In this document: positions 13,528-63,093 of the stretch, one piece after another | Position numbering within the stretch: position 1 is the first letter of the stretch | Layout: every line of letters begins with the position of its first letter | Assembly (NCBI GenBank): GCA_030390025.1 | Contig: CM059443.1 | Span: 67,208,001-67,272,000 of the forward strand | Length of the DNA: 64,000 nucleotides | Direction: 5' to 3' | Source: Squalus acanthias | Taxonomy: Eukaryota | Made by a program: the position numbers and the translations under genes | Notes under the pieces: generated by a model | Database searches by the model: none | Told to the model about the DNA's origin: nothing | The model's input: only the letters and a program-made list of their open reading frames with translations

Positions 13528-13815
13528 ATGGACTCGGACGAGGGCTACATGTACGACGAGGATGAGTACAGCGAGGAGAGCGAGCCCGAGGATAACTTCG
13601 AGATCGGCGAGGTGGAGATGCAGGAGCCCGGCCTGGAGCCCGGGCAGGACGGTGACGGCGGCGGCGGCGGAGGCGGCGGCCTGGGAGGCCTGGGCGGGCT
13701 GGGCGGCCTGGGCGCCGAGCAGGAGGAGGAGGATTACCGCTACGAGGTGCTGAGCGCCGAGCAGATCGTCCAGCACATGGTGGAGTGCATCCGCGAGGTC
13801 AACGAGGTCATCGAG
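13528..13815 (+). CDS. ARIH1: ARIH1 coding exon 1 (acidic and Gly-rich N-terminus, start of UBA-like region)
   Basis: Kozak context gccaagcATGG. Translates [13 protein letters not shown]...VNEVIE. Donor GAG|GTAAAA at 13816. Confidence 0.95.
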
Positions 13816-19800: not shown

Positions 19801-22800
19801 ACTCATTTGTTCTCTGTGTAACGTATATTATATGGGCTGTATGGTACTTGTGGCTGAGTTTGGTTCCAACTACCCGTTCAGTCATTTAAAAAAGAAATTG
19901 CTGTTGCAAAAAACAAGCTTTAGTGGGGTGGGGGTATCTGCGTAAGAACTTGACGTTTAGCTCCACATACGGCATAGTCTCCTAGTAGCTCGATGGTCCC
20001 TGGAGCCCTTTCCAGCAGCTTGGAGATGCGACATTAGCTTTCATTCTGTGGCCAGCTTACTGATGTGCTCTTGGTTTGTATATCAGGTGTCAAGCACTTG
20101 GTTCAATGGCAGCACACTTGCCTCTGAATCAGGCCCCTCTCCAGAGCTCGAGCACATAATCTTGGCTGACACTGTGCTGCATTGCTGGAAGCGCCGTCTT
20201 TCAGATGTGAAATTAAATGGAGGCCATGTCTGTTGAGGTGAAGATCCCACCGCACTGTTTGAAGAAGAGCAGGGAGCTCTCTTGCTGTCCTGGCCAACGT
20301 TCCTCCTTCAACAAACTCCACCAAAACAGATTAACTGCACGTTTTTCTCAGTCTTTTCTTTTTGTGGGCAAATTGGCTGCTGCCTTTGCCTAAAATGATG
20401 AGTAATTCAGTACTGGGCAATAAATGCTGGCCTTGCCAGCGACGCCCACATCCCATGAATGAATAATTAAAAAATAAATCATTAGCCATGAAGGGTTTGG
20501 TTCACGTGGGCGGTCCCGGGCACGGACACCTGAGTTTGGCTTCTTCAGCCAGTAAAGCAGTGCCCCGTCTGATGATGGCGGAGCAAGCCTCTGGCTGAAA
20601 GGAGTACGGGAAAGCTTCCTCCATTCATGTGACGAACTCATGATCATTTTTTACTATTAAATGAGGAATATCTCCTCTTTCCTGAAGAACTGAATCTCCT
20701 CTTTCCTGAAGTATTTTTCATGGTCATGTGATGTACCCTCCTCTACTTCCCACTCGGTGTCCCTGTTCATTGCAGATCTGTGCAGTGTTCAGGGAGGTTA
20801 GTTAAAAGAAAGAAAGACTTGTATTTTTCTATAGCGCCTTTCATGACCTCAGGATGTCCCAAAGCGCTTTACAGCAAACTGGGCAATGCAATGTGGAATT
20901 CACAGAGTGAAGGGTTGGAGCATGATTTTCGGGACTTTCCCATTCTTTTTAAATATAACTTTACAAGCTGTGTCCCACCCTTGCCCCATGGTTCTCTCTT
21001 GGATATGCTGCATCTGAAGTGTTTAAATTCCTCATTCTACATGTTTGCTGCCACCACCTTGCAGAAAAAGCTACAGTGCGATTCCATAATGTCATCTGAA
21101 ATACAGATTGGGTGGGAACAGTTCACACGGCACATGTGGTGCCCTTCCCTTGGAGGAACAGTGTCTCCTCACACCCCAGGGTAAATGAGGAATGTATGTT
21201 AGTCTTGTGTTTCCATGGTCCGATCGCTGCGTTAGTGGAGTTTTTTTATTTACGATGTTGCACTCCCAGTTTTGTCAACTCCAGATTGTATGTGTGAGGG
21301 TTGAGTCACACTGTTAATAAGTTCCTGTGAGGTAGGACATATGGTAATGCTATCAAGTGCATAAATTAAAATAAAAAGCTTTGTAGGTATAAATATTCAC
21401 GTACCTATAAACAGGGTTGTCTCCTCTGTTGGCAGATTTTCGAGGGGGGGGCGGTCTGAAGACCATTGAATGTTAGTTTTTTAATAATTCCGTGTCATTT
21501 GGTCTTGATAGCACACTAGTGTTTTGTTACACAGCAACCTGAGACTCTGGTGGCCTCAGCTGCATTATAATGCACAATTGTGTCTGATGGATTCCTATAC
21601 TTGTGCTGCTAGGTAGGGTGGGATTGTCGATGTTTAATCATTGCTAGGTGATGCTAGCAGTCCCAGTGTTTAGAGTGGCTACATGTCTGGTAGCGATGAT
21701 GGCAGTACTGAATGAGAATAGCTCAGTGTTTTGCATACAGCAATTCACTTTAAAGTGCAGTGGCTGTTTTACAGCAGCCATTTTGTGCATAAACCATATT
21801 AGTGGTGTTTATTGAGGGAGCAGTGTTGACCAGGACACTGGGGGAATTTCCTGTCTCCTTTGATTCGTGCAATTGAATCTTTAACCCGCATGTATTGATT
21901 GGAACAGGCAGACTGGGCCGTAGTTTAACATCACCTCTGATAATACAGCACAGCCTCAGTACTGCAATAATGTCAGCCTAGATTGTGTGTTCACTTGAAG
22001 TGGCCTGAACCCACAGCCTTCTGACTCCGAGGTGGAAATGGTACCAAAGAGCCAAGGTGGCACTGGTGAGTGCTATGAGGTGTTGAAATTAAGAGTTTCA
22101 CGCAGGAAATGCATCATGCAATATTAAAGTGTATCGGCTGAAGTGATTTCTTCCTGCTGTAGAGCTTTAGTATCAATATGACAATTCTGGATGTCGTTCA
22201 TATGTAGACTGTATGTCCCTTAGTATAAAATTTAGTAACTGAAACCCAAAGCAGACTAACAGCACTTTCTGCCTCCATTTAAAGGCCTCAATCACAGGAA
22301 ATGTGCTTCAGAGTAAATACATTGTGTAATTTGATCCTGTCTTTCACCCCCAGAATCCAGCCACTATCACGAGGATACTTCTCAGCCACTTCAACTGGGA
22401 TAAGGAGAAACTAATGGAAAGGTAAGTCTTGTCTGCAGTGGGGAAGGCCTCTGTACAGTGTAAGGATATCAGCTGTGGGGGTAAGGGGGGGATGGAATGT
22501 ACATACTATTTTACATTCTGGAGTTAACAGTAGGTCTTTCCATCTAGAAACAGCTGTCCTTGATAACTGGGTTGTCCCACTGGAAAACAGCTAACACAAT
22601 GCATTTCTACAAGAAAGGGATCAAAGTTAGGTCCGGATGCCCACAGATCCATTGTGCAAAGTCATGGAAACCACACTTGGCTGCAGCAGCCTGCTCTCTG
22701 CTCAGCGAGTTGGCCTCCGAGTAGATTGGTGCAGTTTGTGATGTTCTCGGGCTCCTCGAAGGAGAGCTCATGATGCCCAGAATGAAGCTTAATAACAGTC

Positions 22801-25800
22801 CTCGACATTGTAGCGCCTTCAACAGGAGTGAGCTGTTCTAAAATCATCAACGGTGCTTTTACATGGAGCTCTTCTGTAGTTTAGTTGGTAGGAGGCTGGT
22901 GTCTGTGAGCCAATTCCCTGTGTTTACATTGCTAAATCCTGATGGCAGTCCCACAAACAGGCAGTCGGGATTACAAATACAATATTGCTGTAACCAGCTG
23001 ACTGACCTATTTTGGCACGTCTGGTGATCTGTTGGCCTGGGTATCTAACCTCCAAGAATTTACCAACAGTGGGTCCAGAATAAATGGATGATTGCCTCAT
23101 TATTAATTGTAAAACATTTTGCCCAATTTCTGTCTTCAGTTACTGATTACAAATGCACAGCAGAGGTTTGCACATTTCAACTTTGTTTTTCAGGAGAGGT
23201 CAGAGATTCAATAGTGAATTTAAGTTGAAAATGCAGAAGGGCCAATTTCAGTTATTATTTGACAACCAAGTATGCCGATTGCAAAGGGAAGTGTGGGTAC
23301 TGAACACAGCACTGCTGGCACAGGGATCCGATGATGTGTTGTGCTGAAGACGGCCTAAAGAAAGCTTTGAATCCACTTGCAAGTCCGTGCTATTTAGTGC
23401 TACTTGTGCTTCCTTATCCCATTTCCCACTTGCCCAACAGTGGTTTCCAGTGTGGGACTTATTTTTTTTATTCGTTCCTGGGATGTGGGCGTTGCTGGCA
23501 AGGCCAGCATTTATTGCCTATCCCTAATTGCCCTTGAGAAGGTGGTGGTAAACCGCCTCCTTGAACCGCTGTAGTACTTGTGGTTTCCCACTGTCCCATC
23601 GTTTGAGCAATGATTGCTTTGCCAACTAAGCTTTGTCTCTGTCCTGGTTTGACATTGCTGACTCTAGCCAGTCTGATTAGATGGAATTGTGACCCGTCTC
23701 TCCATTTTGTTCCATTATTGCAAACAAACAGATTATGCATTGAAACAGGAAAACTGGCGCGCAATTACTCACCCCAATAGGAATAGTATTTCAAATTGAA
23801 AATTTTCAAAAATGTTTTTTTTTATAAAAAAGAGAAAAAATGTACTGGTTTCCCACTGACACAGCGCTGGTGTGTAAACCCCCACTGACACAGCGCTGGT
23901 GTGTAAACCCCCACTGACACAGCGCTGGTGTGTAAACCCCCACTGACACAGCGCTGGTGTGTAAACCCCCACTGACACAGCGCTGGTGTGTAAACCCCCA
24001 CTGACACCGCGCTGGTGTGTAAACCCCCACTGACACCGCGCTGGTGTGTAAACCCCCACTGACACCGCGCTGGTGTGTAAACCCCCACTGACACCGCGCT
24101 GGTGTGTAAACCCCCACTGACACCGCGCTGGTGTGTAAACCCCCACTGACACCGCGCTGGTGTGTAAACCCCCACTGACACCGCGCTGGTGTGTAAACCC
24201 CCACTGACACCGCGCTGGTGTGTAAGCTCAATTCAACATTTACAGGAGGATTCATTGACAGCCTAATTGTGCATATTTGAACAGTAAGTTAACCACGTTT
24301 TAGTTCTGATACAAACATCGGGTGGAGGCACTAAATCTGAACGGGGATACAGGTTATTACACCTCCTCTGGGGATACTTTTGGGTTTGGTCTCTTTTTCT
24401 GTACAAATAATTTCTTTAAAATTATGTTGTTTCTACTTGTGGGGGGAGTCCAAAACTAGGGCCTCAAATATGAGAGTCGCTAATAAATCCAGTAAGAAAT
24501 TCAGGAGAAACTTCTTTACTCAGAGGGTGGCAAGAATGTGGAGCATGCCACTGCATGGAGTGATTATGGCAAATAGGGGCCGTAAATAGCACTAAAAAAT
24601 CCACTGAAGAATTCAGGAGAATTTACCCAGAGAGTGGTGAGAATGTGGAACTTGCAGCCACAAAGGTGTAGTTGAGGCAAATAGCGTTGATGCCTTTAAG
24701 GGGAAGCTAGGTAAGCACATGAGGGAGAAAGGAATAGGGGATATGCTGATAGGGTGAGCTGGGAGGAGGCACGTGTGGAGCATAAACACCAGCTGGGCCA
24801 AAGGGTCTGTTTCTGTGCTGTAAAATTCTATGCATTAGAGCCCCTCCCAGTCCTTGTGACCGTTGTTTCTTGTGTTGCATCTTTTGATTATTTTTTACTC
24901 AAGCTCTCTGCTGGAGCATTTTGCACCTTTTGGCCATGGTACAGGTGAACAAATGACCCGCAAGGACTGCTTTCTCCAGAAGTGTTGGGGACATTCTAGT
25001 TCCTTTGTTGTCCAAGTTTGCTAGCAGGTAGGTTAGGTGCTCTTGAGTCTCCCGGGAGGGTGCTGGAGGAGAAGTGAGTTTCATTGTGATTGGAGCATGG
25101 CCATAAGCCCATCTTCATAACTGTGGACTCTTGACAAGTGGGCCTGCTTCACACACAGCAATCTATTCTTGAGTTCTATCTGCATGGTTCTGAAGTTCTA
25201 ATTTGAGTTTTTGAGTTTGGCTTTGTTATTGGTTGTTTGAGGCTATTTTCTGCTGGGGGGGCGGTGGGGGGGGGGTTCTGGGTCCATCCTTGTTATCTTG
25301 TGTGTGGCTGCATGACTTGTTTTCTTATCGGACAGTGCTAGATGATTGGGTGTGTTTCCATATGCAGGAATTGAAGGTTTGGGTGCTTGCCATTGTAGTT
25401 GAGTCTATTAGTCACCAACTGCATAGAGGATCTGTTGTCATTCTGTTTGGAGGTCATGAGTCCTTCTTCATTCTGTGCGCTGTTGATACTTTTGGGTAGT
25501 TGTCACTATGTGGTGGGCCTCAGCTACCTTGTGGAGGAGGTCCCGTGGAGCCTTGGTTGCTGGACTGTGGAAGGGAGCTATAATCCGGATATTGAAATTT
25601 GAAGGGTTGATCTAGGGGAGGATGATGCTGCTGAGGGTGGACTCTGCGGCTCTTCTAACCTGTCCACTGAGTTCCAGCTTGGAGAGGCGGAGGGGGCTTC
25701 TTGAGGTACACTACATGTCACTGCACTGCAGCTCCGAGTCGTTTCTGAGTCCCCTGCGCTTCCCTGACTGGCAGCTCTGTTGTTTACGTCAATGTTCAGT

Positions 25801-28800: not shown

Positions 28801-31800
28801 GCTCCTTGCTGGTCAATGCTACTGTGACCTTGCCCATTTAGTGGAACCCAAGGATGTGTAGCTCCGATTGCTGCTCACTGTAGGACAAAGGACAAGCGAG
28901 TCTACTGGTCCCCATTGTGTAGGATACTTTAAGGCCTAATATCAGACCATCGCTATATAAGCTGTAGATATATTTTTGCTGTGCTTGGAGACAACATACA
29001 ACTTTTCAACAACAAAAAAATTCCAATTTCTGCAGCTTTCAAACTTATTGAGCCCTGTTTCTGGTACAGGCGCTGTGTAAAGAACTGGGAAGGAGTTCTT
29101 TCATAATGACAATTTCTAAAGACATTGCCCCAGATTCTGTTTAATAACAAGGTTTTGTCCTGATGAAGCGCCCCGGTGGAGCATGCCACTCATTGAAATT
29201 GCTCAGTGGATCAAAATTCTTTAATTTGCTGCGCTTGGAGAGATCACATGCTCTTTTTAGAGGTGGTGTATTAACGGTACTGGTCAGTAATCCCAACAAG
29301 ACAGAACTGTGCCAAGTGATCAATTTAATATCAAAATATGAATTATTGAAAGGAATATTCCAATAGCACAGAACTGACCCTGTGCAAAGTAGATTGAGGG
29401 AGCCCCAGTTTTGTTGCCATTACAGTCTGTTCACAAGCTAGAGACCGACGATGGATTCTGGTACTTGTCCAAGCCAACAACATTGTGAAAGATCTTGGAC
29501 TGCACCAATGCAGTTTCTATTTGGCAAGCACCAGCAAGTGAAATATTTTGAGTCCCAGTGTCCCACTGCACTTATTACCTGAGCCATTCCACGAGAATGA
29601 TACTGGCTGTCCTGGTGAGCACAATAATCGAACAGAATTACACACAAACTGTTTGGTCACCAGGAACTACTTTTTGAACAAGCGGGGGTTGTGTGCCTGT
29701 GAGGTTTGGCTAAGGTGTTACTGCTAAGCCATGTGGCTCCATCTTACCAATTACTAGATCCAAATGTGTTGGAAGTGCGTGCGTGTCTGAGAGTCCGTCT
29801 CTTACCACATTTTAACCATCAGATAGACTCTGTTCATCAAGCACTGGTTTCATTTTGAAAATGGGGCCATGTTTGTGCTTTAGTGGGTTTTAGTTTCACC
29901 TCAGCAGCTTCAAGACTTGTGGTGGGAATTTTTTTCTGGTCACTTCCCATAATTTTCTTGGTTCCTTGTTGATGGTTACAGTATCCAATAACACTCCACA
30001 CAGACACTAATCTGGTGCTCAAATCAAAAAACCTGATCTGGTCACACTCCCTGTTACTATTATGAGTGAACTTGAGGCTGTGGCTATATATGGCTTGTAA
30101 GCAGTCATGTAATTGTGATCTCAAAGTAACCAGCACTGAAGTCTTTTAAACTACCTCTCAGTAGACACTAGGTTTAAAATGTTAGAATTTTGTGTGCAAT
30201 GCTAAATTTACACAATGACCGAAATGCCCAAACAAAACTGGTTCAAGATGTGTAATTAAAATGGGCGTTTGAGCACAGAAAATGTGATGCAAAAATAGAA
30301 CATTTTATAAATGGCACCCTTGTTTAGTTATATCTTGCCCCTCTGAAATTCAGATTGCCATTCTGCATTTCCACAATTTTCTCAGTCTATACCTGGAGGC
30401 GAGGTGGATTCTCGAGCATTGATTGTAGTTCTACTTTTGCAGCACATTGTGCATGTCCATTTTTAACTTTTTTTCATTCTGGGAATATGGGTGGCATCTT
30501 TGGCAAGGCTGGCATTTATTGCCCATCCCTAATTGCCCTTGAGAAGGTGGTGGTGGTGGTGGTGGGCCCTCTTCTTGAACCGCTGCAGTCTGTGTGCTCC
30601 TACGGTGCTGTTAGGTCGGGAGTTCCAGGAGTTTGACTCAGCTTTCATCTGACTGTCACTAATTCAGCATTTCTCGCTCGCTTCCTGCTGGGATTCAGAA
30701 TTGTGTGTTGGTGGTATACTGTGAGGTGTTAGGCCAGTGGTGACTGCAGTAACACTTCACACCTCATCCTAAACTAAGATAGTTGTAACGAGGGATAAGT
30801 TCTGTGTACTGTTACTGTAGAGGTGTGAAATAATCAGCATTTCAGGAACATAATGTTAAAGAATCTAGAATAAATTAATTTATAGTCAGAAGTCGCTTAT
30901 CCAAAGTTAACTGACCTGGCTGGACTGCTGAGCATGGCCTGTATGAATAATTCATTTGTTGTATTGTCTATCAGTTTCCACACTGAACTGGTATCAGTTA
31001 ACACAGTGCAGCACTGGAGTTAACATTGGATCAGTTATCTGAATGATTCACTTATCCAAATAGGTGTATCTTCTGAATGTATTTGGTTAAATGGTATCTG
31101 ATTACACTTCCTAAAACTTACCATTCTGAAGTTGTGATCTGGCTACAAGTCTAGTCCAGCCATCTCCGTGTTGAGATTCAGTCTTCCCATCCCCTGGTGC
31201 CCTGCACAGTGGGCCTCGGCCCTTCCCCTGGTGTCCAGCACCGTGGGGCCTCGGCCCTTCCCCTGGTGTCCAGCACCGTGGGGCCTCGGCCCTTCCCCTG
31301 GTGTCCAGCACCGTGGGGCCTCGGCCCTTCCCCTGGTGTCCAGCACCGTGGGGCCTCGGCCCTTCCCCTGGTGTCCAGCACCGTGGGGCCTCGGCCCTTC
31401 CCCTGGTGTCCAGCACCGTGGGGCCGCGGCCCTTCCCCTGGTGTCCAGCACCGTGGGGCCGCGGCCCTTCCCCTGGTGTCCAGCACCGTGGGGCCTCGGC
31501 CCTTCCCCTGGTGTCCAGCACCGTGGGGCCTCGGCCCTTCCCTGCGGTTTGTTAATAAAACAAATTAACAGGTAACCTAAGCTCTGAGAAAAACAAAGCC
31601 TAGTCGATGACCCTGGTCTGTAGTGCTGGTAAAAACCACCCTAGAAAATTGCTGATTTGCAGCACAGCAACAGTTGCTGTGAAAACGCAACACACTAAAT
31701 TTGTGTAGTGAGATCTCTAACACATTCGCGTATAATTTATGAGGATGAATTTTAAAAACGTGCTACCTTTGAATTAGCTAGTGTAGGTGATCCGGTATGT

Positions 31801-40800: not shown

Positions 40801-43800
40801 AAGGAGCTTTGAGCTGTTCTTACACTCTGGAATACACATGGCCTGGCTCTACAACAGTGACTTGTGGTGTTCCAGCCATGATCTTGTATGTAGAGAGCTA
40901 AAAGGGACCATCTCTTCAGCTACTGCTTAGTCATGGAAAGGGACTCTGTCACTCCTAACTACTCAATATCTAAAGTGGCACAAAGAAAGGATGTTATCAG
41001 CATTTTGTTCCTTCTTAAAACTGGCTGAGTTGGAAAACATCAGAGCTTGCAGGTTCTCCTCACCACCTCTTGTATGAGTACACCGCATTTCTTGGTTGAT
41101 GTGCAAAACTGCACCCAAAATAATATTTCAAACTGTTCCCCCCCCCCCGCCCCACCCCCCAACAACATCACAAAAATCTGAAACTGAACACAGTGGATGT
41201 GAACAATTTACCTCTCCCACTATGTAACTAGAATAAAAGAAGGCTTAGGGAATGGATTTAGAAGTTTGTAACCTGGCAAGACAGATGGCCATCACAGCGT
41301 CAGTAGCCCCTGTGTTCTCCACTTTCAAACCATTTGCATCAAGTAGCATTTATAGAGCAGCTACATGGATTCATTCGAACACACTGACCAAGCGTTTCTA
41401 TTTTGATTTGCCTACAGGAGATTATACAGTTTGCAGGCATTTGCCAGCTTCTCCTCTTGATCTTCAGGCCCGTTCCCAACTCCACCCTTCTAAAAAAGGC
41501 TTTACTTTTTGAGTGGGACTTGTGGTGTTGTAGATAATGACCAACTGAAGGGTTCCTCACCAGTAGGTCCCCGTTCAGTATTTTGTATTCTTTACTTGTG
41601 TTAATTGTGTAATGCAACTCTGTGTACAAATGCACAACATTATTCAAACGTTGCTGTTTGTCATCCAGCTATTCTTAAAAGGTTAATGTTTTTGTTCCCC
41701 TTTTTAACAACTTTTTTGAGGGGACATTTTGGGTGTTGGTTTCTTTACTTCAACTTGTGGCTTTGGCCTGAAAGAGCTCGGTGGTTCTGTGGAGCACTCT
41801 TGTAATGGCTGTAGGGAAGGAAAATTGTATGCTTGAGACTGATCAAGTTTCTTAAAGTGGCTCGTTAGCTAGCTTTACCTATAATGGACCTGTATGTATG
41901 AAATTCATCTTGTTCAAAAGTGGGTTACGTAGCCTGGAGAGGTGAGTAATATATCTTTACTGAGAGTCAAGGTGGCATCTTTCTCCTGTCTCTCTTTTCA
42001 ACAAGGGCTTTCCAAGATACTGTTTATCCACTGTTAGCAGATGTTTCATTAAGAATATGCACACACTGTTGAAAAAATTCAAGAATCTTTTGATTAAAAT
42101 TGTGTGTTGCGCAGGCGAAGCTGAGTGATGTCCCAAGCCACCAATATCCATTTCCACTTCACAAGCTTTACAATTAATATTAGTATGGGTAATCTCATTG
42201 CGTGCATCCACATTGGCATACTCGGTTCTTTTAAGAAGGTGGTCTTCTGCTATTTCTTACAGGGTTGTCTTTGCTACCGTATCTTTTATTTTCTTCATAA
42301 GCAGGAAAGAGTTGTATTCTATGTGAGTAACCATGTTGTGGAGCAGTGCAAATACAGTAGGAAGTGCCTGCACATTTGAAATACTGAATTAGTCTGAGTG
42401 GCAGTAATTTGGAATTATGATAAATGGATTAGGATTGTTTCTCGGCAGTAATCTGGTCATTGTGCTTCTAGTTCAATAATCACCTTGACTGTCCTCTCTA
42501 ATTCATTCGACAGGTGTAACATTATCTGTTTGCTGCATTGATCCAGTTAACCCTTTATTTGCTACTTGGGATTGTATTTATTAATAATTATGTTGGGTAA
42601 CTGGTTTAGGATTGACTAAACATTTGAGAATCCAAGATAAAATTGCATTTTAGTCAATCTTAAACCAGTTATCCAACATAAAGTGTAGCAGTCAGGTGGA
42701 GCATGATTGACTGAATTTAATGCAGATGGTCACTAAATTAGCCTGGTGTTCAGGATAACTATGAGCTGCTACTTAATACTCTTCCCAAAAAGCATTGCTT
42801 TTCCAAATGTCATCTTTCCACATTACAAGATAATTATATTTGATTTTGATATGTGTGGCACTGACCTAATAATACATTGTGGAGTCCACGGTGTGAGATG
42901 CCAATATGCAATAGCTTGCATTCACCAAGTTGCTATTTTCCAGATCTAGCAATGCCAACATCAGTTGACAAATGTGAGAAGTCGTCCAACAGCTTTATTT
43001 GAAATTACAAGCTTGTGATTTCAAATAAAGCTGTTGGACTATAACCTGGTGTTGTGCGACTTCTCACATTTGTCCACCCCAGTCCAACACCGGCATCTCC
43101 ACATCATGGCTAACATCAGTTGAAGACACGTAGTGCCACTGGCCCAAAATTCCCTCAAAGTTAGCGTTGATAAGGCACAAGTGGATGAACTCCACTGAAT
43201 ATCCTTCTGGAGAAAGTGATTAATCAACAGGTTCAATCCCAGATTGGAAAAATGCCAAAACTTTTTTCCAGTAACCCAGTGCCCATGGGAAGTCTAGGAT
43301 TGTAGACTTGGGGTAAAGTGAACCACCAAAGCCAGAATACAGACTCAAAATATCACAAATTATCAGATGTATTGGACAAACAAGTGAGGCAAACTGACTT
43401 TTGTTACTGTCACGGACACCAACATGGAAACTAACTACCTCCTCCCACTCTGCCTCCATATCCCTCTCTTTTCTTCTCCCTCATGAATGTATCAATGCTC
43501 TCTGCTTCAACCACTCCATGTGACATCGAGGTCAACATTCTCTCCACTCTGTGTAAAAATAATTCCTCCTAGTTTCTTTATTTGATCTGTTAGTGGCGAT
43601 CTTATATTTGTGGCACTAACCCACAAAGGGAAACAGTTTCTCCACACACAGCCCTTTATCAGGTCTCTTCTTAGTCTTCTGTTTTCCAGAGAAAAGAGCC
43701 CACGCATTCTCAATTTTTACTGATAGTTATGTGAGGGTGATGTACTGATAAGATCTAGGAAATGGTGCTTTGAGATCAGGAGGGCTATGTATTTTATTTC

Positions 43801-49800: not shown

Positions 49801-52800
49801 CAGATTTACTTTGCATTCCGGTCCCCTTGTTTCTTCAATAATTCCTGCAGTTTCTGAAAATGGTTTCCTCGTATTCGAAAGTGACCTGGCATTTCCAGCT
49901 AGGAAGGGAGCTTACTGTAAATAGCTGCTTACAGTAAATGCCACTGATTTTGATGCGCAACCAACCCATGAGAGTCTGCAGAAACCAAAAACACTAATCC
50001 CCAAGCATTGCATTTGACTTTGGTGCTGAGGAAAACATTTAACACCCTTTATAAAGCTTGACTAACAGGGAAGATGGTGTTCGTTTCAAAGAGGACTCGA
50101 TAACCTGGGTGATGTTGGAGCGTTAACACCGAGTTGTTTTTCTCAGCATCACCTCTGGTAATGGGTGAGTTTAAGGGCTAATCCCTTCATGCGATGAATG
50201 CTCATTCTTGGCTTTTCTTTTGTTCTTGTATAGCATTTACAGCACAGAAACAGGCCATTCGGCCCAACTGGTCTATGCCGGTGTTTATGCTCCACACAAG
50301 CCTCCTCCCACCCGATCAGCATAACCTATTCCTTTCTCCCTTGTGTGTTTATCTAGTGTTCCTGCACACACATGCTGGCTGTGCTGTTTTTTTCCTCATC
50401 ATAACCATCGTCTAACTTAAATGGATATAATTCCTGTTGCTCCCATTTCTTTTACAAAGTGAGGATGGGCAGCCACTTAGTTCCGATTGATTTGTGATTT
50501 CAGTGTACTTGATTTGTATACAAGCTGACAACCATTTCATTTCAGCATGTTCTGTTTACATAAGGTTCATGTTAATGACAGCCATGCAGCCTTTTCATTT
50601 GCCCTGATGTGTGTCGTGTTGTTGTCATGGAGCCGTGTTTCAGTTCCAGTGACAAATCTACAAATTGGGTTTGTTTTTGGAGAACTGTAATCATAGAATG
50701 GTTACAGCACGGAAGAAGGCCAATCGAGCCCATGCCGAATCTCAGCTAGTCCCACTCCCCCGCCCTTTCCCCGTAGCCCTGCAAATTTTTTTCTTTCAGA
50801 TACTTATCCAACTCCCTTTTGAAAGATAAGATTGAATCTGCCTCCACCACCCTTTCAGGCAGTGCATTCCAGATCTTAACCACTCGCAGCGTAAAAAAGT
50901 TTTTTCTTGCGTCGCCTTTGGTTCTTTTGCCAATCACCTTAAATCTGTGTCCTCTGGTTCTCGACCCTTCTACCAATGGGAACAGTTTCTCTCTATCTGC
51001 TCTATCCAGTCCCCTCATGATTTTGAACACCTCTATCAAATCTCCTCTCAATCTTCTCTGCTCCAAGGAGAACAACCCCAGCTTCTCCAGTCTATCAACG
51101 TAACTGAAGTCCCTCATCCCTGGAATCATTCTCGTGAATCTTCTCTGCACCCTCTCTAAGGCCTTCACATCTTTCCTAAAGTGTGGTGCCCAGAATTGAA
51201 CACAGTACTCCAGTTGGGACCGAATCAGTGTTTTATACAGGTTCATCATAATTTCCACACTTTTGTACTCTATACCTCTATTTATGAAGCCCAGGATCCC
51301 GTAAGCCTTTTTAACTGTTTTCTCAACCTGCCCGGCGACCTTCAATGATTTGTGCACACATACCCCCAGGTCTCTGTTTATGCACCCCCTTTAGGATTGT
51401 ACCCTTTAGTTTATATTTCCTCTCCTCATTCTTTCTACCAAAGTGTATCACTTAACACTTTTCTGCGTTAAATTTCATTTGCCAAGTGTCCGCCCTACCC
51501 ACCAGCCTGTCTATGTCCTCTTGAAGTCTATCACTATCCTCCTCACTGTTCACGATACTTCCAAGTTTTGTGTCACCTGCAAATTTTGAAATTGTGCCCT
51601 GTACACCCAAGTCCAAGTCATTAATATATATCAAGAAAAGCAGTGGTCCTAGAACCGACCCCTGGGGAACACCACTGTGTACCTTCCTCCAGTCGAAAAA
51701 CAACCGTTCACCGCTACTCTCTGTTTCTTGTCACTTAGCCAATTTTTTATCCATGCTGCCACTGTCCCTTTTATCCCATGGGCTTCAACTTTGCTGGCGA
51801 GCCTATTACGTGGCATTTTGTCGAACGCCTTTTGGAAATTCATGTACACTACGTAAATCGCATTACCCTCAACAACCCTCTCTGTTACCTCATCAAAAAA
51901 CTTGATCAATTTGGTTAAACACGATTTGCCTTTAACAAATCAGTGCTGGCTTTCCTTAATTAATCCACACCTATCCAAGTTAATTTTATCCCTGATTACT
52001 GTTTCTAAAAGCTTCTCCACTACCGAGGTTAAACTGACTGGCCTGTAGTTGCTGTATTTATCTTTACACCCTTTTTTGAATAATAGTGTAACATTTGCAA
52101 TTCTCCTGTCCTCTGGCACCACCCCCGTATCTATGGAGGATTGGAATATTATGGCCAGTACCTCCGTGATTTCCGTCCTCAATTCCCTCAGCATCCTAGG
52201 AGCATCCCATCCGCTTCTGGTGACTTATCAACTTAAGTACAGCCAGCCTTTATAATACCTCTTCTTCATCAATTTTTATCCTATCAAGTGTCTCCACTAC
52301 CACCTCCTTCACTGTCTATGGCAGCATCCTCTTCCTTGGTGAAGACAGATGCAAAGTACTCATTTAGTACCTCAGCCATACCCTCTGCCTCCATGCATAG
52401 GTCTCCTTTTTGGTCCCTAATCGGCCCCACCCCTCCTCTTACTATCCTTTTACTATTTATATACCTATAGGAGACTTTTGGATTATCTTTTATGTTGGCT
52501 GTCATTCTATTCTCATACCCTCTCTTTGCCCCTCTTATTTTCTTTTTCACTTCTCCTTTGATCTTTCTGTATATAGCCTGATTCTCAGATGTATTTGCAA
52601 CCTGACATCTGTCATACGCACTCTTTTTCTGCTTCATCATATTGGCTATCTGTTTCGTCATCCAGGGAGCTCTGACTTTAGTTGCTCTACCTTTTCCCCC
52701 CGTGGGAATGTACCTTGACTGTACCCGAACTATTTCCTCTTTAAAGGCAGCCCATTGTTCCACTACAGTTTTGCCTGCCAATCTTGGATTCCAGTTTACC

Positions 52801-58800: not shown

Positions 58801-61800
58801 TTGCTGTGGCAAATCAATGATCACTTAAAGTAAAATTACATAGAATTAAATAGAAATGACAACATGGAAACAGGCCATTCAGCCCAACCACTCCATGTAG
58901 TGCTTATCCTCCATATGAGCAATGATACTAATCCTAATGCCCACCCTGTTCTCATATGCCTTCATTCCGCTTTACTTCAACCACCGATCTAACCTTAAAT
59001 GTTGATACGATCTCTGCTTCAATTGCTAACTCTGGTCGGGCAAGCCACAGCCACATAGCCCTCTGTAAAAATGTTTCTCCTGCTCTCTGTCCTAAATCTC
59101 TTACATTTAATCTCATATGCATGTCCCCTTTTTTTTTTAGAACCCTCGAACACCGAATCACTGGAAGCAGTCTGTTTCTGCATCTACTCTGTCCCCATCA
59201 CTTCATAATGTTGAACACCTCTATCAAATTACCCCTTGAGCTCCTTTGTTCTAATGAAAACAGCCGCAATTTTTCTTTGTATTTCTTGATACTAGGCAGC
59301 ATATGAGTGAATCTGCGCTGTCTCCTCTGTTGCCTCAATATCCTTCCTATAGTGTCGATTCCAAAACTGCACACAATATTCCAACTGTGATCTTTCTAAA
59401 GTTTTATATAGATTAACCATTATATCTCAACTTTTATATTCTATACCTCTTGCCAAAAAACAATATTCCATCAGCTTTCTTTATGGCTTATCCACTTGAG
59501 GTGCTGCTTTTAATGTCTTGTGAACCTGAGCGCCCCCCCCCCCCCCCCCCCAAATCCCTCCACTTCCACATCTTCCAGTCTCTCACCATTCAAAGTTTAA
59601 TTATGACCTTCACTGTTTTTACCAAAATGTACCACCTCACTGACAATGAATTCCATTTAATACTTTTTTTCCCTATTCCACATGTTCTCAATATCCCCTT
59701 GCAGCTTCATTTGGTCTTCAGAATTATTTATTATGCCTCCTATTTTCATATTGTCTGCAAATTTTGGACACCGCTCCCTCCAGCCTTATATCCAAATCAT
59801 TGTACACAGTGAACAGAAGTGTTCCCAGAGCAGGACTCCTGTACCCACTTCCACTATCCACTTCCAGCCATTCTGAGCAACACCCTTAACTCCTACTCTG
59901 TTTCCCTCCTTCTAACCAGTTTTTAATTCAATTTGCTACCCTCTCCTTAATTCTATGCCCCTTAATCTTCTCCAATAGCCTCCTGTGTGGTACCTTGTTA
60001 AAGGCTTTCTGAAAGTCCATGTACACCACATCCACTGTGACGTAAGAAAACTACTAGGCACTTGGTCTAAGCGTTAAACAAAGCTTTAATCAACTGTTTT
60101 ACAATATGGAGGTCTAGTTGTGTCCTTCACTAGTTCCGGTTAAGAATGTCCTGCACAAGCTCGGCCCGTGCCCGAGTATTTATACTCTCCCTGGACTGCG
60201 CCACCTGCAGGCCACTCAGTATTATTTCATAAGTCATGAATGACCAGATTCATGTCACACTGTATTTGCCCAAAACAATTAAACTTGGCTGTAGTTCCTT
60301 GTTTCTTCAGTGTTGTGTCATTACTATGGCTATCGGTGCAGACAGTGTCCTCCACACAAATTGTTGGTTAGGAGGCAAAAGTCTCGAGTAACATGTTGTG
60401 AAATACTCATCTACTCACTCAGGGAGACTTGAGGGAAACAAGTTGACCACAATCTGTCCCAAAACAGACCAAGTACACCGACAGTGTTCTGGAATAGACA
60501 TGCCATTTCCACCCAGCAAGTTTAGTTTGCTAATGAAACATGGGGTACAAAGGGCTCTTAAAGTAAAATATTACCTGGAACATAACTTAAGTGCGTCTAA
60601 TCGCTGTTTACTGTCCTTTAACCCTCGGATTGATTTCTCAATATGGCTTGCTAATTCATTGGGCTTGGTAGGTAGTTGATTAGTATCGAGCGATACCATA
60701 TTAGAACTCAAGTGTAGTCATCTGTTGCTTATCTGTAGTTGGATCTTTACTGTTCACTAACAATGTCTCAACAGGAATGCCCGAAATGCCATGTGACCAT
60801 TGAGAAGGACGGTGGATGCAATCACATGGTTTGTCGCAATCAGAATTGTAAAGCAGAATTCTGTTGGGTTTGCCTTGGTCCCTGGGAGCCACACGGATCT
60901 GCCTGGTTAGTCTGTCAGTCGCTGCGCTCTTGTAAAAAGCAGAGGTTTAGCATTATCCAATATTTGAATTGTTTTGGGCACTGGGTTGCATGATTTGGTA
61001 GGATGCTGTTGTACCTCAGTGACCCAAGTTTGAATCCAGGCAAGATACTTGATTGAAGGTCTCTGCTCCAGAAGAGATGTTCTGTCCTGCTTTCAGTACC
61101 TGGGCACAATTTCGCGTCCACTGAGATGGCATTCCTACTCCAAATCAATGGAACAGGGCTAGGCTGAATATTATAGTAAGGAACTCTGACTAAATACACA
61201 ATATTGAGAGGTCGCACAACACCAGGTTATAGTCCAACAGTTTTATTTGAAATCACAAGCTTTCGGAGCTATCGATTTGCTCCTTCCTCAGGTGAAGTAA
61301 ATTAGATACAGAATCTCCAAAGCATATATAGATGGAAAACAAAGCATGTGTACTTTACAATTGCAGACCAATAAATTAAATCATCCTGACTATCTGCCGA
61401 GGTGTGATAAAGTTAATTAAGTCAGCCAGGAAGGTACCACATCAAAGACATAGCAAGATACAACTGAGATTCTGTATCTAATTTACTTCACCTGAGGAAG
61501 GAGCAAATCGATAGCTCCGAAAGCTTGTGATTTCAAATAAAACTGTTGGACTATAACCTGGTGTTGTGCGACCTCTCAATTTTGTCCACCCCAGTCCAAC
61601 ACCGGCATCTCCGCATCATAAATACACAATAGCCAGTGGGAGAATTAACCTCTTAGCCTGCCCAATATAATTGATATGGGGAAGAAGCGTTTGATAAAGT
61701 GCCACATAATAGGTTTGCCAGCAAAGTTGAAGCCCATGGAATAAAAGGGACAGTGGCAGCATGGATACGAAATTGGCTAAGTGACCGGAAACAGAGAGTA

Positions 61801-63093
61801 GTGGTGAACGGTTGTTTTTCGGACTGGAGGATGGTATACAGTGCTGTTCCCCAGGGGTCGGTTCTAAGAACACTGCTTTTCTTGATGTATATTAATGACT
61901 TGGACTTGGGTGTGCAGAGCACAATTTCAAAATTTGCAGATGACACAAAACTTGGGAGTATAGTGAACAGTGAGGAGGATAGTGATAGACTTCAAGAGGA
62001 CATAGACAGGCTAGTGGAATTGGCGGACACGTAGCAGATGAAATTTAATGCAGAAAAGTGCGAAGTGATACATTTTGGTCGGAAGAACGAGGAGAGGTAA
62101 TATAAACTGAAGGGTACAATTCTAATGGGGGTGCAGGAACATACTCCTGGGGATATATGCGCACAAATTGTTAAAGGTGGCAGGGCAGGTTGAGAAAGCA
62201 GTTAAAAAAGCATACGGGATCCTGGGCTTCATAAATAGAGGCAGAGAGTACAAAAGCAAGGAAGTTATGATGAACCTGTATAAAACACTGGTCCGGCCTC
62301 AACTGGAGTATTGCCCAATTCTGGGCACCGCACTTTAGGAAGGATGTGAAGGCCTTAGAGAGGGTGCAGAAAAGATTTACAAGAATGGTTGCAGGGGTGA
62401 GGGACTTCAGTTACATGGATAGACGAGAGAAGCTGGGGTTGTTCTCCTTAGAGCAGAGAAGGTTGAGAGGAAATTTGATAGAGGTGTTCAAAATCTGGAG
62501 GGGTCTAGACAGAGTAGATAGAGAGAAAATGTTCCCATTGGCGGAAGGGTTGAGAGCCAGAGGACACAGATTTAAGGTGATTGGCAGAAGAGCCAAAGGC
62601 GACCGGAGAGAAACTTTTTTACTCAGCGAGTGGTTATGATCTGGAATTCACTGCCAGAAAGGGTGGTGGAGGCAGACTCAATCGTGGCTTTCAAAATGGA
62701 ATTGGATAAGTACCTGATGGAAAAAAATATGCAGTGCTACGGGGAAAGGGCGGGGGAGTGGGACTAGCTGAAGTGCTCTTGCAGAGAGCCAGCACGGGCT
62801 CGACGGGCCGAATGGCCACCTGTGCTGTAACCATTCTATGATTCTAAGAAGTAACTAATCAATGGATTCAAGTAGTCAAGTCAGCAGGAAGGTTCAGTAA
62901 CTTTTCAATCTGTACATGGTGATAGGAGAAAGTTCTTAACTGGCGTAGAAAGCAATGAGAAATTTATACATGGTCTGTATTTTTTTCTGTTATTAAAGCT
63001 GAAATTAAACTAAGTTACCCCCTCTCTGTTTTTAGGTATAACTGCAATCGTTACAATGAAGATGACGCAAAGGCAGCAAGGGATGCCCAGGAG
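13528..63093 (+). CDS. ARIH1: E3 ubiquitin-protein ligase ARIH1 (HHARI, RBR family); spliced CDS, coding exons 1-11, 3'-partial
   Basis: Eleven GT-AG exons join in frame (288+68+145+93+56+67+107+43+72+131+58 = 1128 nt, 376 aa). They give MDSDEGY...[68 protein letters not shown]...RING1, IBR, RING2 ([20 protein letters not shown]). This is recognisably the vertebrate ARIH1 sequence. The Ariadne-domain exons lie beyond the window. Confidence 0.97.
14100..14508 (+). repeat. G-rich compound minisatellite (about 20-bp and 30/31-bp units)
   Basis: TTGAGCAGGAT(T/C)C(T/G)GGGG(G)TT recurs, with or without a CACTGGGG(G)TT extension. Confidence 0.9.
15351..15450 (+). mobile_element. Penelope-like element terminal fragment with a degenerate minimal hammerhead motif
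   Basis: GGTT CTGCCAA A AGGTC ATC GACCT GAAA CG TT AACT, followed by CTCTCCACAGATGCTGCCTGACCTG...TATTTCCAGCATTTTCTG, which I recall as a common elasmobranch repeat end. Confidence 0.6.
16480..16770 (-). mobile_element. Decayed SINE (family B)
   Basis: ATCAGGAG...GCTAACTCAGCACAG...GAGCCTGG is the reverse complement of 270-410. Confidence 0.45.
20095..20392 (+). mobile_element. Deu-domain SINE, decayed
   Basis: GCACACTTGCCTCTGA...GAGCACATAATC...GAAGAAGAGCAGGGAG...GTCCTGGCCAA...AAATTGGCTGC. Confidence 0.75.
20414..20478 (+). mobile_element. 3' end of a second non-LTR retrotransposon family
   Basis: GGGCAATAAATGCTGGCCTTGCCAGCGACGCCCACATCCCATGAATGAATAA plus an A-rich tail. Reverse-complement copies at about 23462-23572, 30470-30640 and 63812-63905. 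Confidence 0.6.
22354..22421 (+). CDS. ARIH1: ARIH1 coding exon 2
   Basis: Acceptor ctttcacccccag; encodes [22 protein letters not shown](R); donor AG|GTAAGT; 68 nt. Confidence 0.96.
23852..24225 (+). repeat. 29-bp minisatellite, 13 copies
   Basis: Unit CCCCCACTGACAC(A/C)GCGCTGGTGTGTAAA; five A-variant copies followed by eight C-variant copies. Confidence 0.95.
24430..24832 (+). mobile_element. CR1 3' fragment(s) with internal duplication
   Basis: AATTCAGGAGAA...CAGAG(G/A)GTGG...AGAATGTGGA occurs twice; ends CTGTGCTGTAAAATTCTATG. Confidence 0.7.
24840..26280 (-). mobile_element. Probable highly decayed L1/Tx1-like element (endonuclease remnants)
   Basis: Minus-strand fragments ILYAVGD*, NSRID and GHAPITMKL occur in the order expected for the APE motifs GDFN, SRID and SDH. 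Many stops and frameshifts. Confidence 0.35.
28389..28533 (+). CDS. ARIH1: ARIH1 coding exon 3 (start of RING1)
   Basis: Acceptor ttcttgcag; encodes [48 protein letters not shown]; donor TCG|GTGAGT; 145 nt. Confidence 0.96.
31186..31544 (+). repeat. 35-bp GC-rich minisatellite (9 full copies plus degenerate ends)
   Basis: Unit CCCTTCCCCTGGTGTCCAGCACCGTGGGGCC(T/G)CGG. Confidence 0.95.
34527..36209 (+). mobile_element. L2 LINE, 5'-truncated, frameshifted reverse transcriptase
   Basis: Fragments [60 protein letters not shown] and [10 protein letters not shown]; 3' tail GGCGCTATAT...(GTT)n. Confidence 0.93.
37700..38525 (-). mobile_element. CR1 LINE fragment, decayed
   Basis: Begins with the reversed tail GAACATAGGAA...GGCCATT...GATCATGGCTGATCT, then reversed ORF2 C-terminal sequence. 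Confidence 0.75.
38750..39022 (+). mobile_element. Non-LTR retrotransposon ORF2 internal fragment (CR1/L2 group)
   Basis: Translates [21 protein letters not shown]...[35 protein letters not shown], containing the GPD motif found upstream of the RT domain. Confidence 0.75.
39815..40126 (+). mobile_element. Deu-domain SINE body and tail
   Basis: TAAACCGAGGCCC...GAAGAGGAGCAGGGAG...GTTTGTGGG...GGTGCTATATAAATGCAAGTCCTTTC. Confidence 0.8.
42969..43111. mobile_element. Collapsed fold-back Penelope-like mini-element (143 bp), same family as 61204-61618
   Basis: TSD AACATCAGTTGA at 42957-42968 and 43112-43123. Hairpin 42984-43039 is centred on AAGCTT. Shares the tail TTTGTCCACCCCAGTCCAACACCGGCATCTCC with the 61-kb copy. 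Confidence 0.8.
43870..45600 (+). mobile_element. Old decayed CR1 with a younger antisense CR1 tail inserted at about 44995-45215
   Basis: [21 protein letters not shown] and [20 protein letters not shown] are RT-upstream motifs, and the decayed 3' end is present. The reversed tail AGAACATAAGAAATAGGAGCAGGAG starts near 44995. Confidence 0.7.
46806..46923 (+). repeat. 31-bp minisatellite, about 4 copies
   Basis: Unit GTGTCGGTGTGTACCGTGGAGTCTCGGGGCC. Confidence 0.85.
47272..47364 (+). CDS. ARIH1: ARIH1 coding exon 4 (RING1)
   Basis: Acceptor gttgtttgcag; encodes [31 protein letters not shown]; donor CAG|GTATGT; 93 nt. Confidence 0.96.
47475..47530 (+). CDS. ARIH1: ARIH1 coding exon 5 (end of RING1)
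   Basis: Acceptor ctctttgcag; encodes [18 protein letters not shown](M); donor AT|GTAAGT; 56 nt. Confidence 0.96.
48243..48622 (-). mobile_element. Deu-domain SINE with a 33-bp internal tandem duplication
   Basis: Reversed tail AAGAAAGAGCTTGCATTTATATAGCG and Deu domain. GCCCCTCCGACAGTGCGGCGCTCCCTCAGTACT occurs twice (48553-48618). Confidence 0.85.
50689..54795 (-). mobile_element. CR1 LINE, near-complete ORF2 (APE + RT, frameshifted) plus ORF1 esterase C-terminus, interrupted by a nested CR1
   Basis: Minus-strand ORFs: 54425..54631 ([23 protein letters not shown]-type ORF1), 52284..53342 (APE), 51452..52194 (RT: [24 protein letters not shown]) and 50746..51357 (C-terminus). Confidence 0.93.
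53619..54388 (+). mobile_element. 5'-truncated CR1 nested antisense in the larger CR1
   Basis: ORF 53616..54320 is a CR1 ORF2 C-terminus. Flanked by CTAATG at 53613-53618 and 54389-54394 (TSD). Confidence 0.9.
55201..55224 (+). repeat. Poly-C tract (24 nt)
   Basis: Uninterrupted C run about 140 nt upstream of the exon 6 acceptor. Confidence 0.9.
55367..55433 (+). CDS. ARIH1: ARIH1 coding exon 6
   Basis: Acceptor ttttccccag; encodes [22 protein letters not shown]; donor GAG|GTAAGG; 67 nt. Confidence 0.96.
55806..55912 (+). CDS. ARIH1: ARIH1 coding exon 7 (IBR)
   Basis: Acceptor cttttccatcacag; encodes [35 protein letters not shown](C); donor TG|GTAAGT; 107 nt. Confidence 0.96.
56035..56077 (+). 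CDS. ARIH1: ARIH1 coding exon 8 (IBR)
   Basis: Acceptor tttttaatttacag; encodes [14 protein letters not shown]; donor AAG|GTGAGA; 43 nt. Confidence 0.96.
57631..57702 (+). CDS. ARIH1: ARIH1 coding exon 9
   Basis: Acceptor cttccttgtag; encodes [24 protein letters not shown]; donor AAG|GTAGAC; 72 nt. Confidence 0.96.
58840..60037 (-). mobile_element. CR1 LINE fragment, decayed
   Basis: Reversed tail CATAGAA...GGCCATTCAGCCC through the reversed KAF-KVPH RT motif near 60000. Confidence 0.75.
60038..60257 (-). mobile_element. Solo LTR (220 bp)
   Basis: TG...CA termini (TGACGT / ATGTCA). 5-bp TSD CACTG at 60033-60037 and 60258-60262. The minus strand has TATAAA followed by ATTAAA. Confidence 0.75.
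60775..60905 (+). CDS. ARIH1: ARIH1 coding exon 10 (RING2/Rcat; catalytic Cys codon at 60817-60819)
   Basis: Acceptor tctcaacag; encodes [43 protein letters not shown](W); donor TG|GTTAGT; 131 nt. GGCNH is the RBR catalytic motif (human C357, residue 328 here). Confidence 0.97.
61245..61302 (-). ncRNA. Minimal type-I hammerhead ribozyme motif (antisense copy)
   Basis: Exact reverse complement of 61481-61538. Confidence 0.7.
61481..61538 (+). ncRNA. Minimal type-I hammerhead ribozyme motif (sense to ARIH1)
   Basis: Stem I TCAC (61488-91) / GTGA (61527-30); core CTGAGGA (61492-98); stem II GGAGC/GCTCC; GAAA (61519-22); palindromic AAGCTT in place of stem III; predicted cut after CUU at 61526. 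Confidence 0.7.
61683..62846 (+). mobile_element. CR1 LINE 3' 1.15 kb (RT to tail)
   Basis: [21 protein letters not shown] and [12 protein letters not shown] motifs; tail CCATTCTATGATTCT. Closely similar to the reverse complement of 50689-51835. Confidence 0.92.
63036..63093 (+). CDS. ARIH1: ARIH1 coding exon 11
   Basis: Acceptor ctctctgtttttag; encodes [19 protein letters not shown]; donor GAG|GTAAAA; 58 nt. Confidence 0.95.

What the first reader, a model, noticed from the sequence alone, without database searches (positions are those of the whole stretch)
61191..61631. TSD-flanked fold-back mini-element carrying two inverted hammerhead ribozymes in ARIH1 intron 10
Seen: a 415-bp insertion with a 13-bp TSD and no ORF, made of two perfect 115-bp inverted arms. 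Each arm reads (on one strand) ATTT-ACT-TCAC-CTGAGGA-A-GGAGC-AAATCGATA-GCTCC-GAAA-GC-TT-GTGA-TTTC-AAAT. That gives the hammerhead core (CUGANGA / GAAA / UH), a 5-bp stem II, a stem I with an internal loop, and the palindrome AAGCUU in place of stem III. Established: Penelope-like retroelements carry minimal hammerheads with a palindromic loop 3 that are proposed to cleave as dimers, and they often insert with an inverted partial terminal repeat. Inference: this is a young, non-coding, ribozyme-bearing retroposon (perfect arms, intact TSD) mobilised in trans. It sits about 300 nt downstream of the exon encoding the catalytic cysteine. The motif class is known; this family and its intronic context may be undescribed.
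Basis: partly seen in the sequence, partly recalled or inferred. Interest (0 to 1): 0.85.

Follow-up and report, generated by a model that had tools for sequence, protein, structure and literature searches.

The report
Truncated Penelope retrotransposon end, silenced ribozymes
This is a recent, broken-off end of a Penelope-type jumping gene, inserted back-to-back in an intron of a cartilaginous fish's ARIH1 gene; its two small ribozyme motifs are real but should cancel each other out, so it is mostly an ordinary example of a known kind.

Summary
In detail: a 13-bp TSD, two 114-bp perfect inverted arms and a minimal hammerhead (HHR) in each arm (published descriptor: 2 hits in the window, 0 in 300 shuffles), in ARIH1 intron 10 of a cartilaginous fish. 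TSD + tail-less inverted repeat + direct repeat with a 30-40-nt tail is the textbook Penelope-like element (PLE) insertion. The second copy shares the 3' end and nearly the same left junction but has a different apex, so the fold-back is probably made at each insertion and is not a mini-element family. The two HHRs lie on opposite strands and cannot form a dimer in one transcript; any read-through RNA buries each in a 114-bp duplex (74.8 kcal/mol penalty). Most likely a young, doubly 5'-truncated, dead PLE terminus; if anything a dsRNA source. No RT/GIY-YIG partner was found, and no fish genome or repeat library was available. One lead: copy 2 folds back exactly at the HHR palindrome, and loop II holds a second palindrome, hinting that RNA dimerisation may shape the inversions.

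The parts
60775..60905 (+). ARIH1 coding exon 10 (contains the catalytic Cys); host context
   Evidence: 43 of 43 identical to PDB ARIH1 344-386, and the 2m9y entry has Ser at this Cys; exon order
61191..61203 (+). Left target-site duplication (13 nt; 12 nt if the shared T is element-derived)
61204..61317 (-). Inverted, tail-less copy of the PLE terminal repeat (left arm, 114 nt)
   Evidence: 114 of 114 identical to the right arm; junction microhomology 5 of 6 with the target end
61253..61295 (-). Minimal type-I hammerhead, left copy (C3 at 61291, H17 at 61257)
   Evidence: descriptor hit; coordinates
61318..61465 (-). 148-nt spacer, probably the upstream continuation of the left (inverted) repeat; orientation inferred
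   Evidence: TATA-type box at 61330-61323 and Inr-type motif at 61300-61294, minus strand only, box at -32; 23 of 5000 shuffled spacers give this; motif chosen after seeing the sequence
61466..61579 (+). Direct copy of the terminal repeat (right arm, 5'-truncated)
61488..61530 (+). Minimal type-I hammerhead, right copy; predicted cut after 61526; palindrome AAGCTT 61521-26; second palindrome ATCGAT 61507-12 in the 9-nt loop II
   Evidence: matches the published consensus
61580..61619 (+). One-sided PLE 'tail' (39-40 nt), ending at a probable ORF start codon (inferred from copy 2, which continues ATGGCT)
   Evidence: tail definition
61619..61631 (+). Right target-site duplication
42969..43111 (+). 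Second, independent copy in ARIH1 intron 3: inverted part 42969-43011 (18-nt deletion, 1 substitution), apex on AAGCTT 43009-43014, direct part with 35-39-nt tail; lacks the 5' half of the HHR
   Evidence: 94 of 99 identical to 61521-61619
42957..42968 (+). Left TSD of copy 2 (12 nt perfect; 14 of 15 if extended to 42954)
43112..43123 (+). Right TSD of copy 2

Best explanation
A young, doubly 5'-truncated insertion of the terminal repeat (pLTR) of an endonuclease-bearing Penelope-like retrotransposon. Inferred mechanism: the RT/GIY-YIG protein nicks both target strands 12-13 nt apart. The right-hand end primes reverse transcription at the outer start site (giving tail + arm). The left-hand end primes 35-40 nt further in, helped by 4-5 nt of microhomology (giving the tail-less inverted arm, here running on through the 148-nt spacer). 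Both cDNAs stop early and are joined head to head, and repair leaves the TSD. Both arms copy the same 114 nt, so two template copies or two passes are needed. The HHR is a passenger of the pLTR. At this locus it should be inactive, because it has no stem III as a monomer and any read-through RNA, including ARIH1 pre-mRNA, zips it into a 114-bp duplex. The likeliest residual effects are a long intronic dsRNA (editing or siRNA substrate) and possibly a weak antisense promoter. Shown: anatomy, motif match, second copy, host gene, predicted folding. Inferred: enzyme, order of events, spacer orientation, inactivity in vivo.
For: Anatomy matches the published PLE pattern: an inverted 5'-truncated copy at the 5' end and a 30-40-bp tail at one end only, and an inverted pLTR 37 bp shorter, a 31-bp tail and 8-10-bp TSDs in Adineta. 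In vitro, an anole PLE nicks and extends both strands from two RT start sites separated by the tail. The motif fits the PLE min-HHR consensus: the turtle row has the same GAAA-G-C-U-U and the lamprey row the same stem I; 0 hits in 300 shuffles. Two independent copies share the 3' end (CATCAT), have left junctions 5 nt apart (tails 40 and 35 nt to CATCAT) and each has a 12-nt perfect TSD core, but their apices differ. Within each copy both arms carry that copy's own variants. Folding: the HHR conformation costs 74.8 kcal/mol in the whole element on either strand, and CUGAGGA is paired to the left arm at all 5 of 5 nascent-transcript lengths tried. Left-junction microhomology is 5 of 6 and 4 of 6; 474 and 2564 of 63994 window hexamers match as well.
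Against: No RT or GIY-YIG sequence was linked to this repeat. A crude motif scan of 1044 frames of 35 aa or more in the window found none, and three protein searches with translated repeat frames found no relative. Only 2 copies were seen, so a fixed fold-back subfamily cannot be excluded. No covariation could be tested, because only one HHR sequence is in hand. No microhomology is visible at the apex of copy 1. Spacer orientation rests on a post-hoc promoter motif, and the one PLE promoter mapped experimentally is TATA-less. The anole study found priming without homology, whereas the left junctions here suggest some. Arm identity can also be kept up by gene conversion, so youth is not proven by it alone.
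Confidence: 0.75

Rival explanations
1. Same insertion mechanism, but the template was a short non-autonomous PLE derivative (retrozyme-like monomer or SINE-like pLTR RNA) mobilised in trans rather than a full-length PLE RNA.
For: No coding sequence in either copy. pLTR sequences suffice for mobilisation in trans. Retrozymes derive from pLTRs and occur in a chondrichthyan genome.
Against: No tandem repeat and no canonical stem III, which define retrozymes. Copy 2 ends in ATGGCT in a strong start context, as expected if an ORF follows the tail (inference). Most PLE insertions are simply 5'-truncated.
Confidence: 0.15
2. One reading: a discrete fold-back mini-element with two HHRs that moves as a unit.
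For: Perfect arms, intact TSD, two complete HHR motifs. Copy 2 could be a deletion product of such a unit, collapsed between the two AAGCTT sites.
Against: A read-through RNA of the unit is a 114-bp hairpin with both motifs masked. The left junctions of the two copies differ by 5 nt and each shows microhomology to its own target, so the left end looks newly made each time. The pattern is already explained by PLE insertion.
Confidence: 0.06
3. A DNA transposon (MITE or Foldback-type) with long terminal inverted repeats and a chance or captured HHR.
For: Long inverted repeats, a TSD and no ORF.
Against: The right repeat is not terminal (39-40-nt tail). The left end is variable. The complete PLE min-HHR consensus is matched, with 0 chance hits in 300 shuffles.
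Confidence: 0.02
4. A functional intronic ribozyme that regulates ARIH1 by cleaving intron 10, like the conserved amniote intronic HHRs.
For: Sense-strand HHR 590 nt downstream of the catalytic exon. The isolated right arm folds stem II with probability 0.95. Conserved intronic HHRs exist in amniotes.
Against: Masked by the antisense arm, which is transcribed first. Tested min-HHR monomers were inactive, or needed the PLE protein. The insertion looks young rather than conserved.
Confidence: 0.03

Closest known systems
Endonuclease-bearing Penelope-like elements (Penelope/Poseidon, Neptune clades): inverted-pLTR insertions with tail
   Same: Inverted tail-less repeat at the 5' end, direct repeat with a 30-40-nt tail, TSD, min-HHR in the repeat, palindrome at the inverted junction in copy 2.
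   Different: No ORF is retained, so the clade cannot be assigned. The TSD (12-13 nt) is slightly longer than the 8-10 nt in the Adineta passages. No chondrichthyan is among the 56 rows of the 2014 motif table.
Minimal hammerheads of metazoan PLEs (Cervera and de la Pena 2014, PMC4209133)
   Same: U-rich flank, 4-bp stem I, CUGANGAH, G-C closing stem II, GAAAN-NUH with palindromic 15.2-16.2, AU-rich 3' flank. Opposite-strand pairs 100-700 bp apart were already noted.
   Different: Stem II is 5 bp. Loop II holds a 6-nt palindrome; by eye, 0 of 56 published rows have one wholly within loop II (not computed).
Poseidon of Anolis carolinensis (PAc; PMC11167929)
   Same: Two RT start sites separated by the tail, both strands nicked and extended, uncleaved RNA used as template (copy 2 extends past the HHR cut site), AT-rich target.
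   Different: In PAc the start sites lie 111-118 nt into the ORF and the HHR overlaps the start codon. Here the 3' end appears to fall at the start codon, about 90 nt downstream of the HHR.
Non-LTR retrozymes (PMC7229834; bioRxiv 10.64898/2026.07.22.740005)
   Same: Non-coding, type-I HHR, pLTR-related, present in a chondrichthyan.
   Different: Retrozymes are head-to-tail tandem repeats that yield circles. This is head-to-head, with one sense HHR per strand.
LINE-1 twin-priming 5' inversions (recalled)
   Same: Both target strands prime and the two cDNAs join at an internal apex.
   Different: In twin priming the two segments normally come from different parts of one RNA (recalled). Here they overlap over all 114 nt, and there is no poly(A) tail.

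Membership tests
EN+ Penelope-like elements | ORF with telomerase-like RT and GIY-YIG endonuclease | not testable with these tools
   The insertion has no ORF. No partner was found in the window or through translated repeat frames. No fish genome or repeat library was available.
EN+ Penelope-like elements | Inverted 5'-truncated terminal repeat adjacent to the direct copy | tested here: met
   Both copies; definition
EN+ Penelope-like elements | 30-40-bp tail at one end only | tested here: met
   39-40 nt in copy 1, 35-39 nt in copy 2
EN+ Penelope-like elements | HHR motif within the terminal repeat | tested here: met
   Descriptor: 2 hits, 0 in 300 shuffles
EN+ Penelope-like elements | Target-site duplication, AT-rich target | tested here: met
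   13 of 13 nt; 12 of 12 nt (14 of 15) in copy 2
EN+ Penelope-like elements | Promoter within the pLTR | tested here: inconclusive
   TATA+Inr motif on the minus strand, 23 of 5000 shuffles, post hoc; no transcript data
Minimal type-I hammerhead ribozyme | Core C3-A9, G12-A15.1, U16.1, H17 with stems I and II | tested here: met
Minimal type-I hammerhead ribozyme | Palindromic 15.2-16.2 allowing an intermolecular stem III | tested here: met
   AGCU; a double-hammerhead pairing is topologically valid, -21.7 kcal/mol against -24.2 for two monomers and -33.3 for the loop-II duplex
Minimal type-I hammerhead ribozyme | Covariation of stems across copies | not testable with these tools
   Only one HHR sequence in hand; the genome-contig scans gave 0 loci
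Minimal type-I hammerhead ribozyme | Self-cleavage | not testable with these tools
   Needs an experiment; predicted blocked in the native context
Rfam hammerhead families | Covariance-model match | tested here: not met
   No hammerhead family among 8 and 2 matches up to E=10
Non-LTR retrozyme | Head-to-tail tandem units, each with a sense HHR | tested here: not met
   Head-to-head; one HHR per strand; definition
MITE / Foldback DNA transposon | Inverted repeats at both termini with constant ends | tested here: not met
   One-sided tail; left ends differ by 5 nt between copies

The most novel reading that the evidence does not exclude
In this PLE family the hammerhead doubles as an RNA dimerisation signal for two-template, two-ended priming. 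It carries two 6-nt palindromes: AAGCUU (stem III swap) and AUCGAU, set in a 9-nt loop as AA-hexamer-A, the layout of retroviral dimer-initiation loops (recalled). They are the only two 6-nt palindromes in the 114-nt arm, and two units are predicted to dimerise 9 kcal/mol below two monomers. A paired RNA dimer held by the predicted dimeric RT-endonuclease would explain why both arms copy the same sequence, and why copy 2 folds back exactly at AAGCTT. That would give the PLE ribozyme, whose role is still unclear, a structural rather than catalytic job. Rivals for the apex: annealing of two cDNA ends, or later hairpin-driven deletion between the two palindromes.
Probability: 0.1. Interest if true: 0.7.

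Novelty: new member of a known kind. Interest (0 to 1): 0.22.

Why it matters
As a single locus it matters little: PLE ends with minimal hammerheads occur by the thousand in fish and amphibian genomes, and this one is probably inert. Its value is as a clean fossil of the PLE insertion reaction. Two independent copies show a 12-13-nt stagger, two priming sites 35-40 nt apart and overlapping arms, which matches the in vitro two-start-site result in a lineage absent from the 2014 motif table. It also points to a cheap genome-wide test of an open question, what the PLE hammerhead is for: count where the inversion apices fall. Inverted PLE copies gave siRNAs in flies, so intronic fold-backs like this could feed silencing of their own family.

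Tried and rejected
Rfam at E up to 10 on 1001 and 91 bases: no hammerhead family; MIR821 (119.6 bits, cut-off 249) only reflects the long hairpin. Two exact-pattern scans of bacterial and archaeal genome contigs for stray copies: 0 loci each. Searches for predicted proteins containing translated repeat frames, to reach the ORF or more copies: a 33-aa frame gave 1 hit at E=5e-4, a tandem-repeat translation judged chance; a 45-aa antisense frame gave 0 of 3 candidates among longer proteins and no candidate among similar-length ones. These are weak negatives. A crude motif scan for PLE RT or GIY-YIG in 1044 window frames found none; no Pfam scan was run. blastn found no other copy of the spacer in the window. 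The first microhomology count for copy 2 used an offset wrong by one base and was replaced. A third loose hammerhead-like hit at 20569-20600 fails the published descriptor. A snap-back self-priming origin for copy 1 was considered; by inspection no pairing is seen at the apex. An assembly artefact is unlikely given TSDs on two independent copies. Literature: searches listed no paper on this shark family, on ARIH1 intronic hammerheads, or on apices at the HHR palindrome; 'inversion junction' had 0 occurrences in all 11 papers listed. Only open-access text was searched. Unchecked: Repbase, Dfam, any fish genome or RNA-seq, the viral and metagenome contig collections, the supplements of the 2026 preprint (its species and family tables may include this family), and the supplements of the anole paper.

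Full report
OBSERVATION. The 13-mer TAAATACACAATA occurs at 61191-61203 and 61619-61631 and nowhere else in the window. Between the two lie 415 nt: a left arm 61204-61317, a 148-nt spacer, a right arm 61466-61579 that is the exact reverse complement of the left (114 of 114), and a 39-40-nt stretch present only on the right. Each arm holds, on opposite strands, CUGAGGA-A, a 5-bp stem II with a 9-nt loop, GAAAGCUU and a 4-bp stem I. I coded the published minimal-hammerhead descriptor. It hits the window twice, at these two places, and never in 300 dinucleotide-preserving shuffles. Rfam has no matching hammerhead model up to E=10.

HOST. The upstream exon is 43 of 43 identical to solved ARIH1 and includes the Cys that is Ser in one entry. 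Exon 1 is 95% identical to the Callorhinchus milii protein, against at most 59% for other full-coverage hits among 59 proteins, so the host is most likely a cartilaginous fish. Mapping that protein gave ten exons, and a targeted search found the missing fifth at about 47472. This makes 60775-60905 coding exon 10 and places the element in intron 10, if there is no upstream non-coding exon.

SECOND COPY. blastn found a relative at 43009-43107, 94 of 99 identical, in intron 3. It is also a fold-back with its own TSD (12 nt perfect, 14 of 15 extended). Its inverted part starts 5 nt from where copy 1's does, has an 18-nt deletion and one substitution, and turns round exactly on the hammerhead palindrome AAGCTT. 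Both copies end at CATCAT; copy 2 continues GGCT, giving an ATG in strong context that I read as the start of the lost ORF (inference). In each copy both arms share that copy's private variants. The target end resembles the element just beyond each left junction, 5 of 6 and 4 of 6; 474 and 2564 of 63994 window hexamers do as well. This is suggestive only, with two cases.

WHAT IT IS. Craig et al. (PMC8557442, passages) describe PLE insertions as highly 5'-truncated, often with an inverted truncated copy at the 5' end and a 30-40-bp tail at one end. Arkhipova et al. (PMC3846280, passages) give a case with an inverted repeat 37 bp shorter than the direct one, a 31-bp tail and a 9-bp TSD, and note palindromes at inverted junctions. 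Frangieh et al. (PMC11167929, parts 1-2 of 4: abstract, main text, start of methods) show that a PLE protein nicks and extends both strands from two start sites separated by the tail, uses uncleaved RNA, and that its hammerhead cleaves only with protein. Cervera and de la Pena (PMC4209133: abstract, results, discussion and the supplementary PDF) define the motif, report opposite-strand pairs 100-700 bp apart as probable truncated PLEs, and found a tested monomer inactive and multimers weak. Their 56 rows include no cartilaginous fish, but the turtle row has the same GAAA-G-C-U-U and the lamprey row the same stem I. Every testable feature fits. The defining ORF could not be tested: none lies in the window, and searches for stray copies or translated repeat fragments failed. 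From recall, and tested by no call, elasmobranch genomes carry high-copy PLEs with similar ends.

SPACER. On the minus strand a TATA-type box (61330-61323) sits 32 nt before an Inr-type A at 61298, just ahead of the left hammerhead. Five such motifs occur in the whole window, and 23 of 5000 shuffled spacers give one. I therefore take the spacer as the continuation of the inverted copy, which would be 262 nt long with a promoter facing exon 10. The motif was chosen after looking, and the D. virilis promoter is TATA-less (PMC2377424, passages), so this stays tentative.

HOW IT WORKS NOW. A transcript through the element in either direction contains one sense hammerhead and its perfect antisense. 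Forcing the ribozyme fold costs 74.8 kcal/mol, and stem II has a probability of about 1e-22. In ARIH1 pre-mRNA the antisense arm is made first, and the core is paired to it at 5 of 5 lengths tested. The two motifs therefore cannot be a cis dimer. Isolated, the right arm forms stem II (0.95) and partly stem I (0.31), but stem III would need a 2-nt loop. A double hammerhead between two RNAs is allowed but is predicted at -21.7 kcal/mol, against -24.2 for two monomers and -33.3 for a duplex through the loop-II palindrome (tertiary contacts not modelled). An antisense transcript from the putative promoter would escape masking but is predicted to misfold (stem II 0.10). The likelier consequence is a 114-bp dsRNA; siRNAs matched the inverted regions of Penelope copies in flies (PMC3681739, passages). 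Zero differences over 127 paired positions bound arm and TSD divergence below 2.3%, consistent with a recent insertion.

ALTERNATIVES. A non-autonomous template remains possible. The 2026 preprint (10.64898/2026.07.22.740005, parts 1-3 of 5 and passages, supplements not seen) derives retrozymes from pLTRs and finds them in one chondrichthyan. Retrozymes are tandem, though (PMC7229834, passages), and this is not. A fixed mini-element, a DNA transposon and a domesticated intronic ribozyme (PMC6155905, passages) fit worse, for the reasons given under the rivals.

NOVELTY AND VERDICT. A new member of a known kind, possibly already in repeat libraries I could not search. The lead worth keeping is that the only two 6-nt palindromes in the arm both lie in the hammerhead and one marks the apex of copy 2. 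If apices cluster there across the genome, the ribozyme may act as a dimer interface during two-ended priming (probability about 0.1). One apex of two is thin evidence, and later deletion between the two palindromes explains it equally well.

Noticed in passing
window 42969-43111: Second fold-back copy of the same family in ARIH1 intron 3, with its own TSD and its apex on the hammerhead palindrome.
   Followed up: yes
window 61505-61513: Loop II is AA + 6-nt palindrome + A, the layout of retroviral dimer-initiation loops (recalled); predicted to drive an extended RNA dimer.
   Followed up: partly
window 61273-61295 and 61580-61594, + strand: Pyrimidine tract + CAG acceptor-like sites in the left arm (followed at once by GTGAAG) and in the tail, the latter outside the hairpin; could be a cryptic ARIH1 splice site or the end of a PLE 5'-UTR intron. 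Seen by eye only.
   Followed up: no
window 61370 and 61536 (+), 61247 (-): AATAAA hexamers in the spacer loop and just 3' of each hammerhead; possible cryptic polyadenylation signals.
   Followed up: no
window 61455-61479: A 7-bp inverted repeat with a 10-nt loop spans the apex of copy 1; it may relate to how the two cDNAs were joined.
   Followed up: partly
window 43009-43073 and 61198-61262: Copy 2 and the left arm of copy 1 are 65-nt inverted repeats flanking exons 4-10, which could favour back-splicing, though local hairpins should win.
   Followed up: no
window 61682-62771 and 50742-51833: About 1.1 kb of LINE-like sequence (CR1-type label recalled) directly downstream, 88-90% identical to an inverted copy 10 kb upstream, bracketing exons 6-10.
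   Followed up: no
window 42588-42681: Unrelated 33-bp inverted repeat (94%) with a 28-nt loop, about 290 nt upstream of copy 2.
   Followed up: no
window about 13000-14540, 23770-24290, 31110-31640: GC-rich region around ARIH1 exon 1 and several minisatellite arrays that give long spurious ORFs.
   Followed up: no
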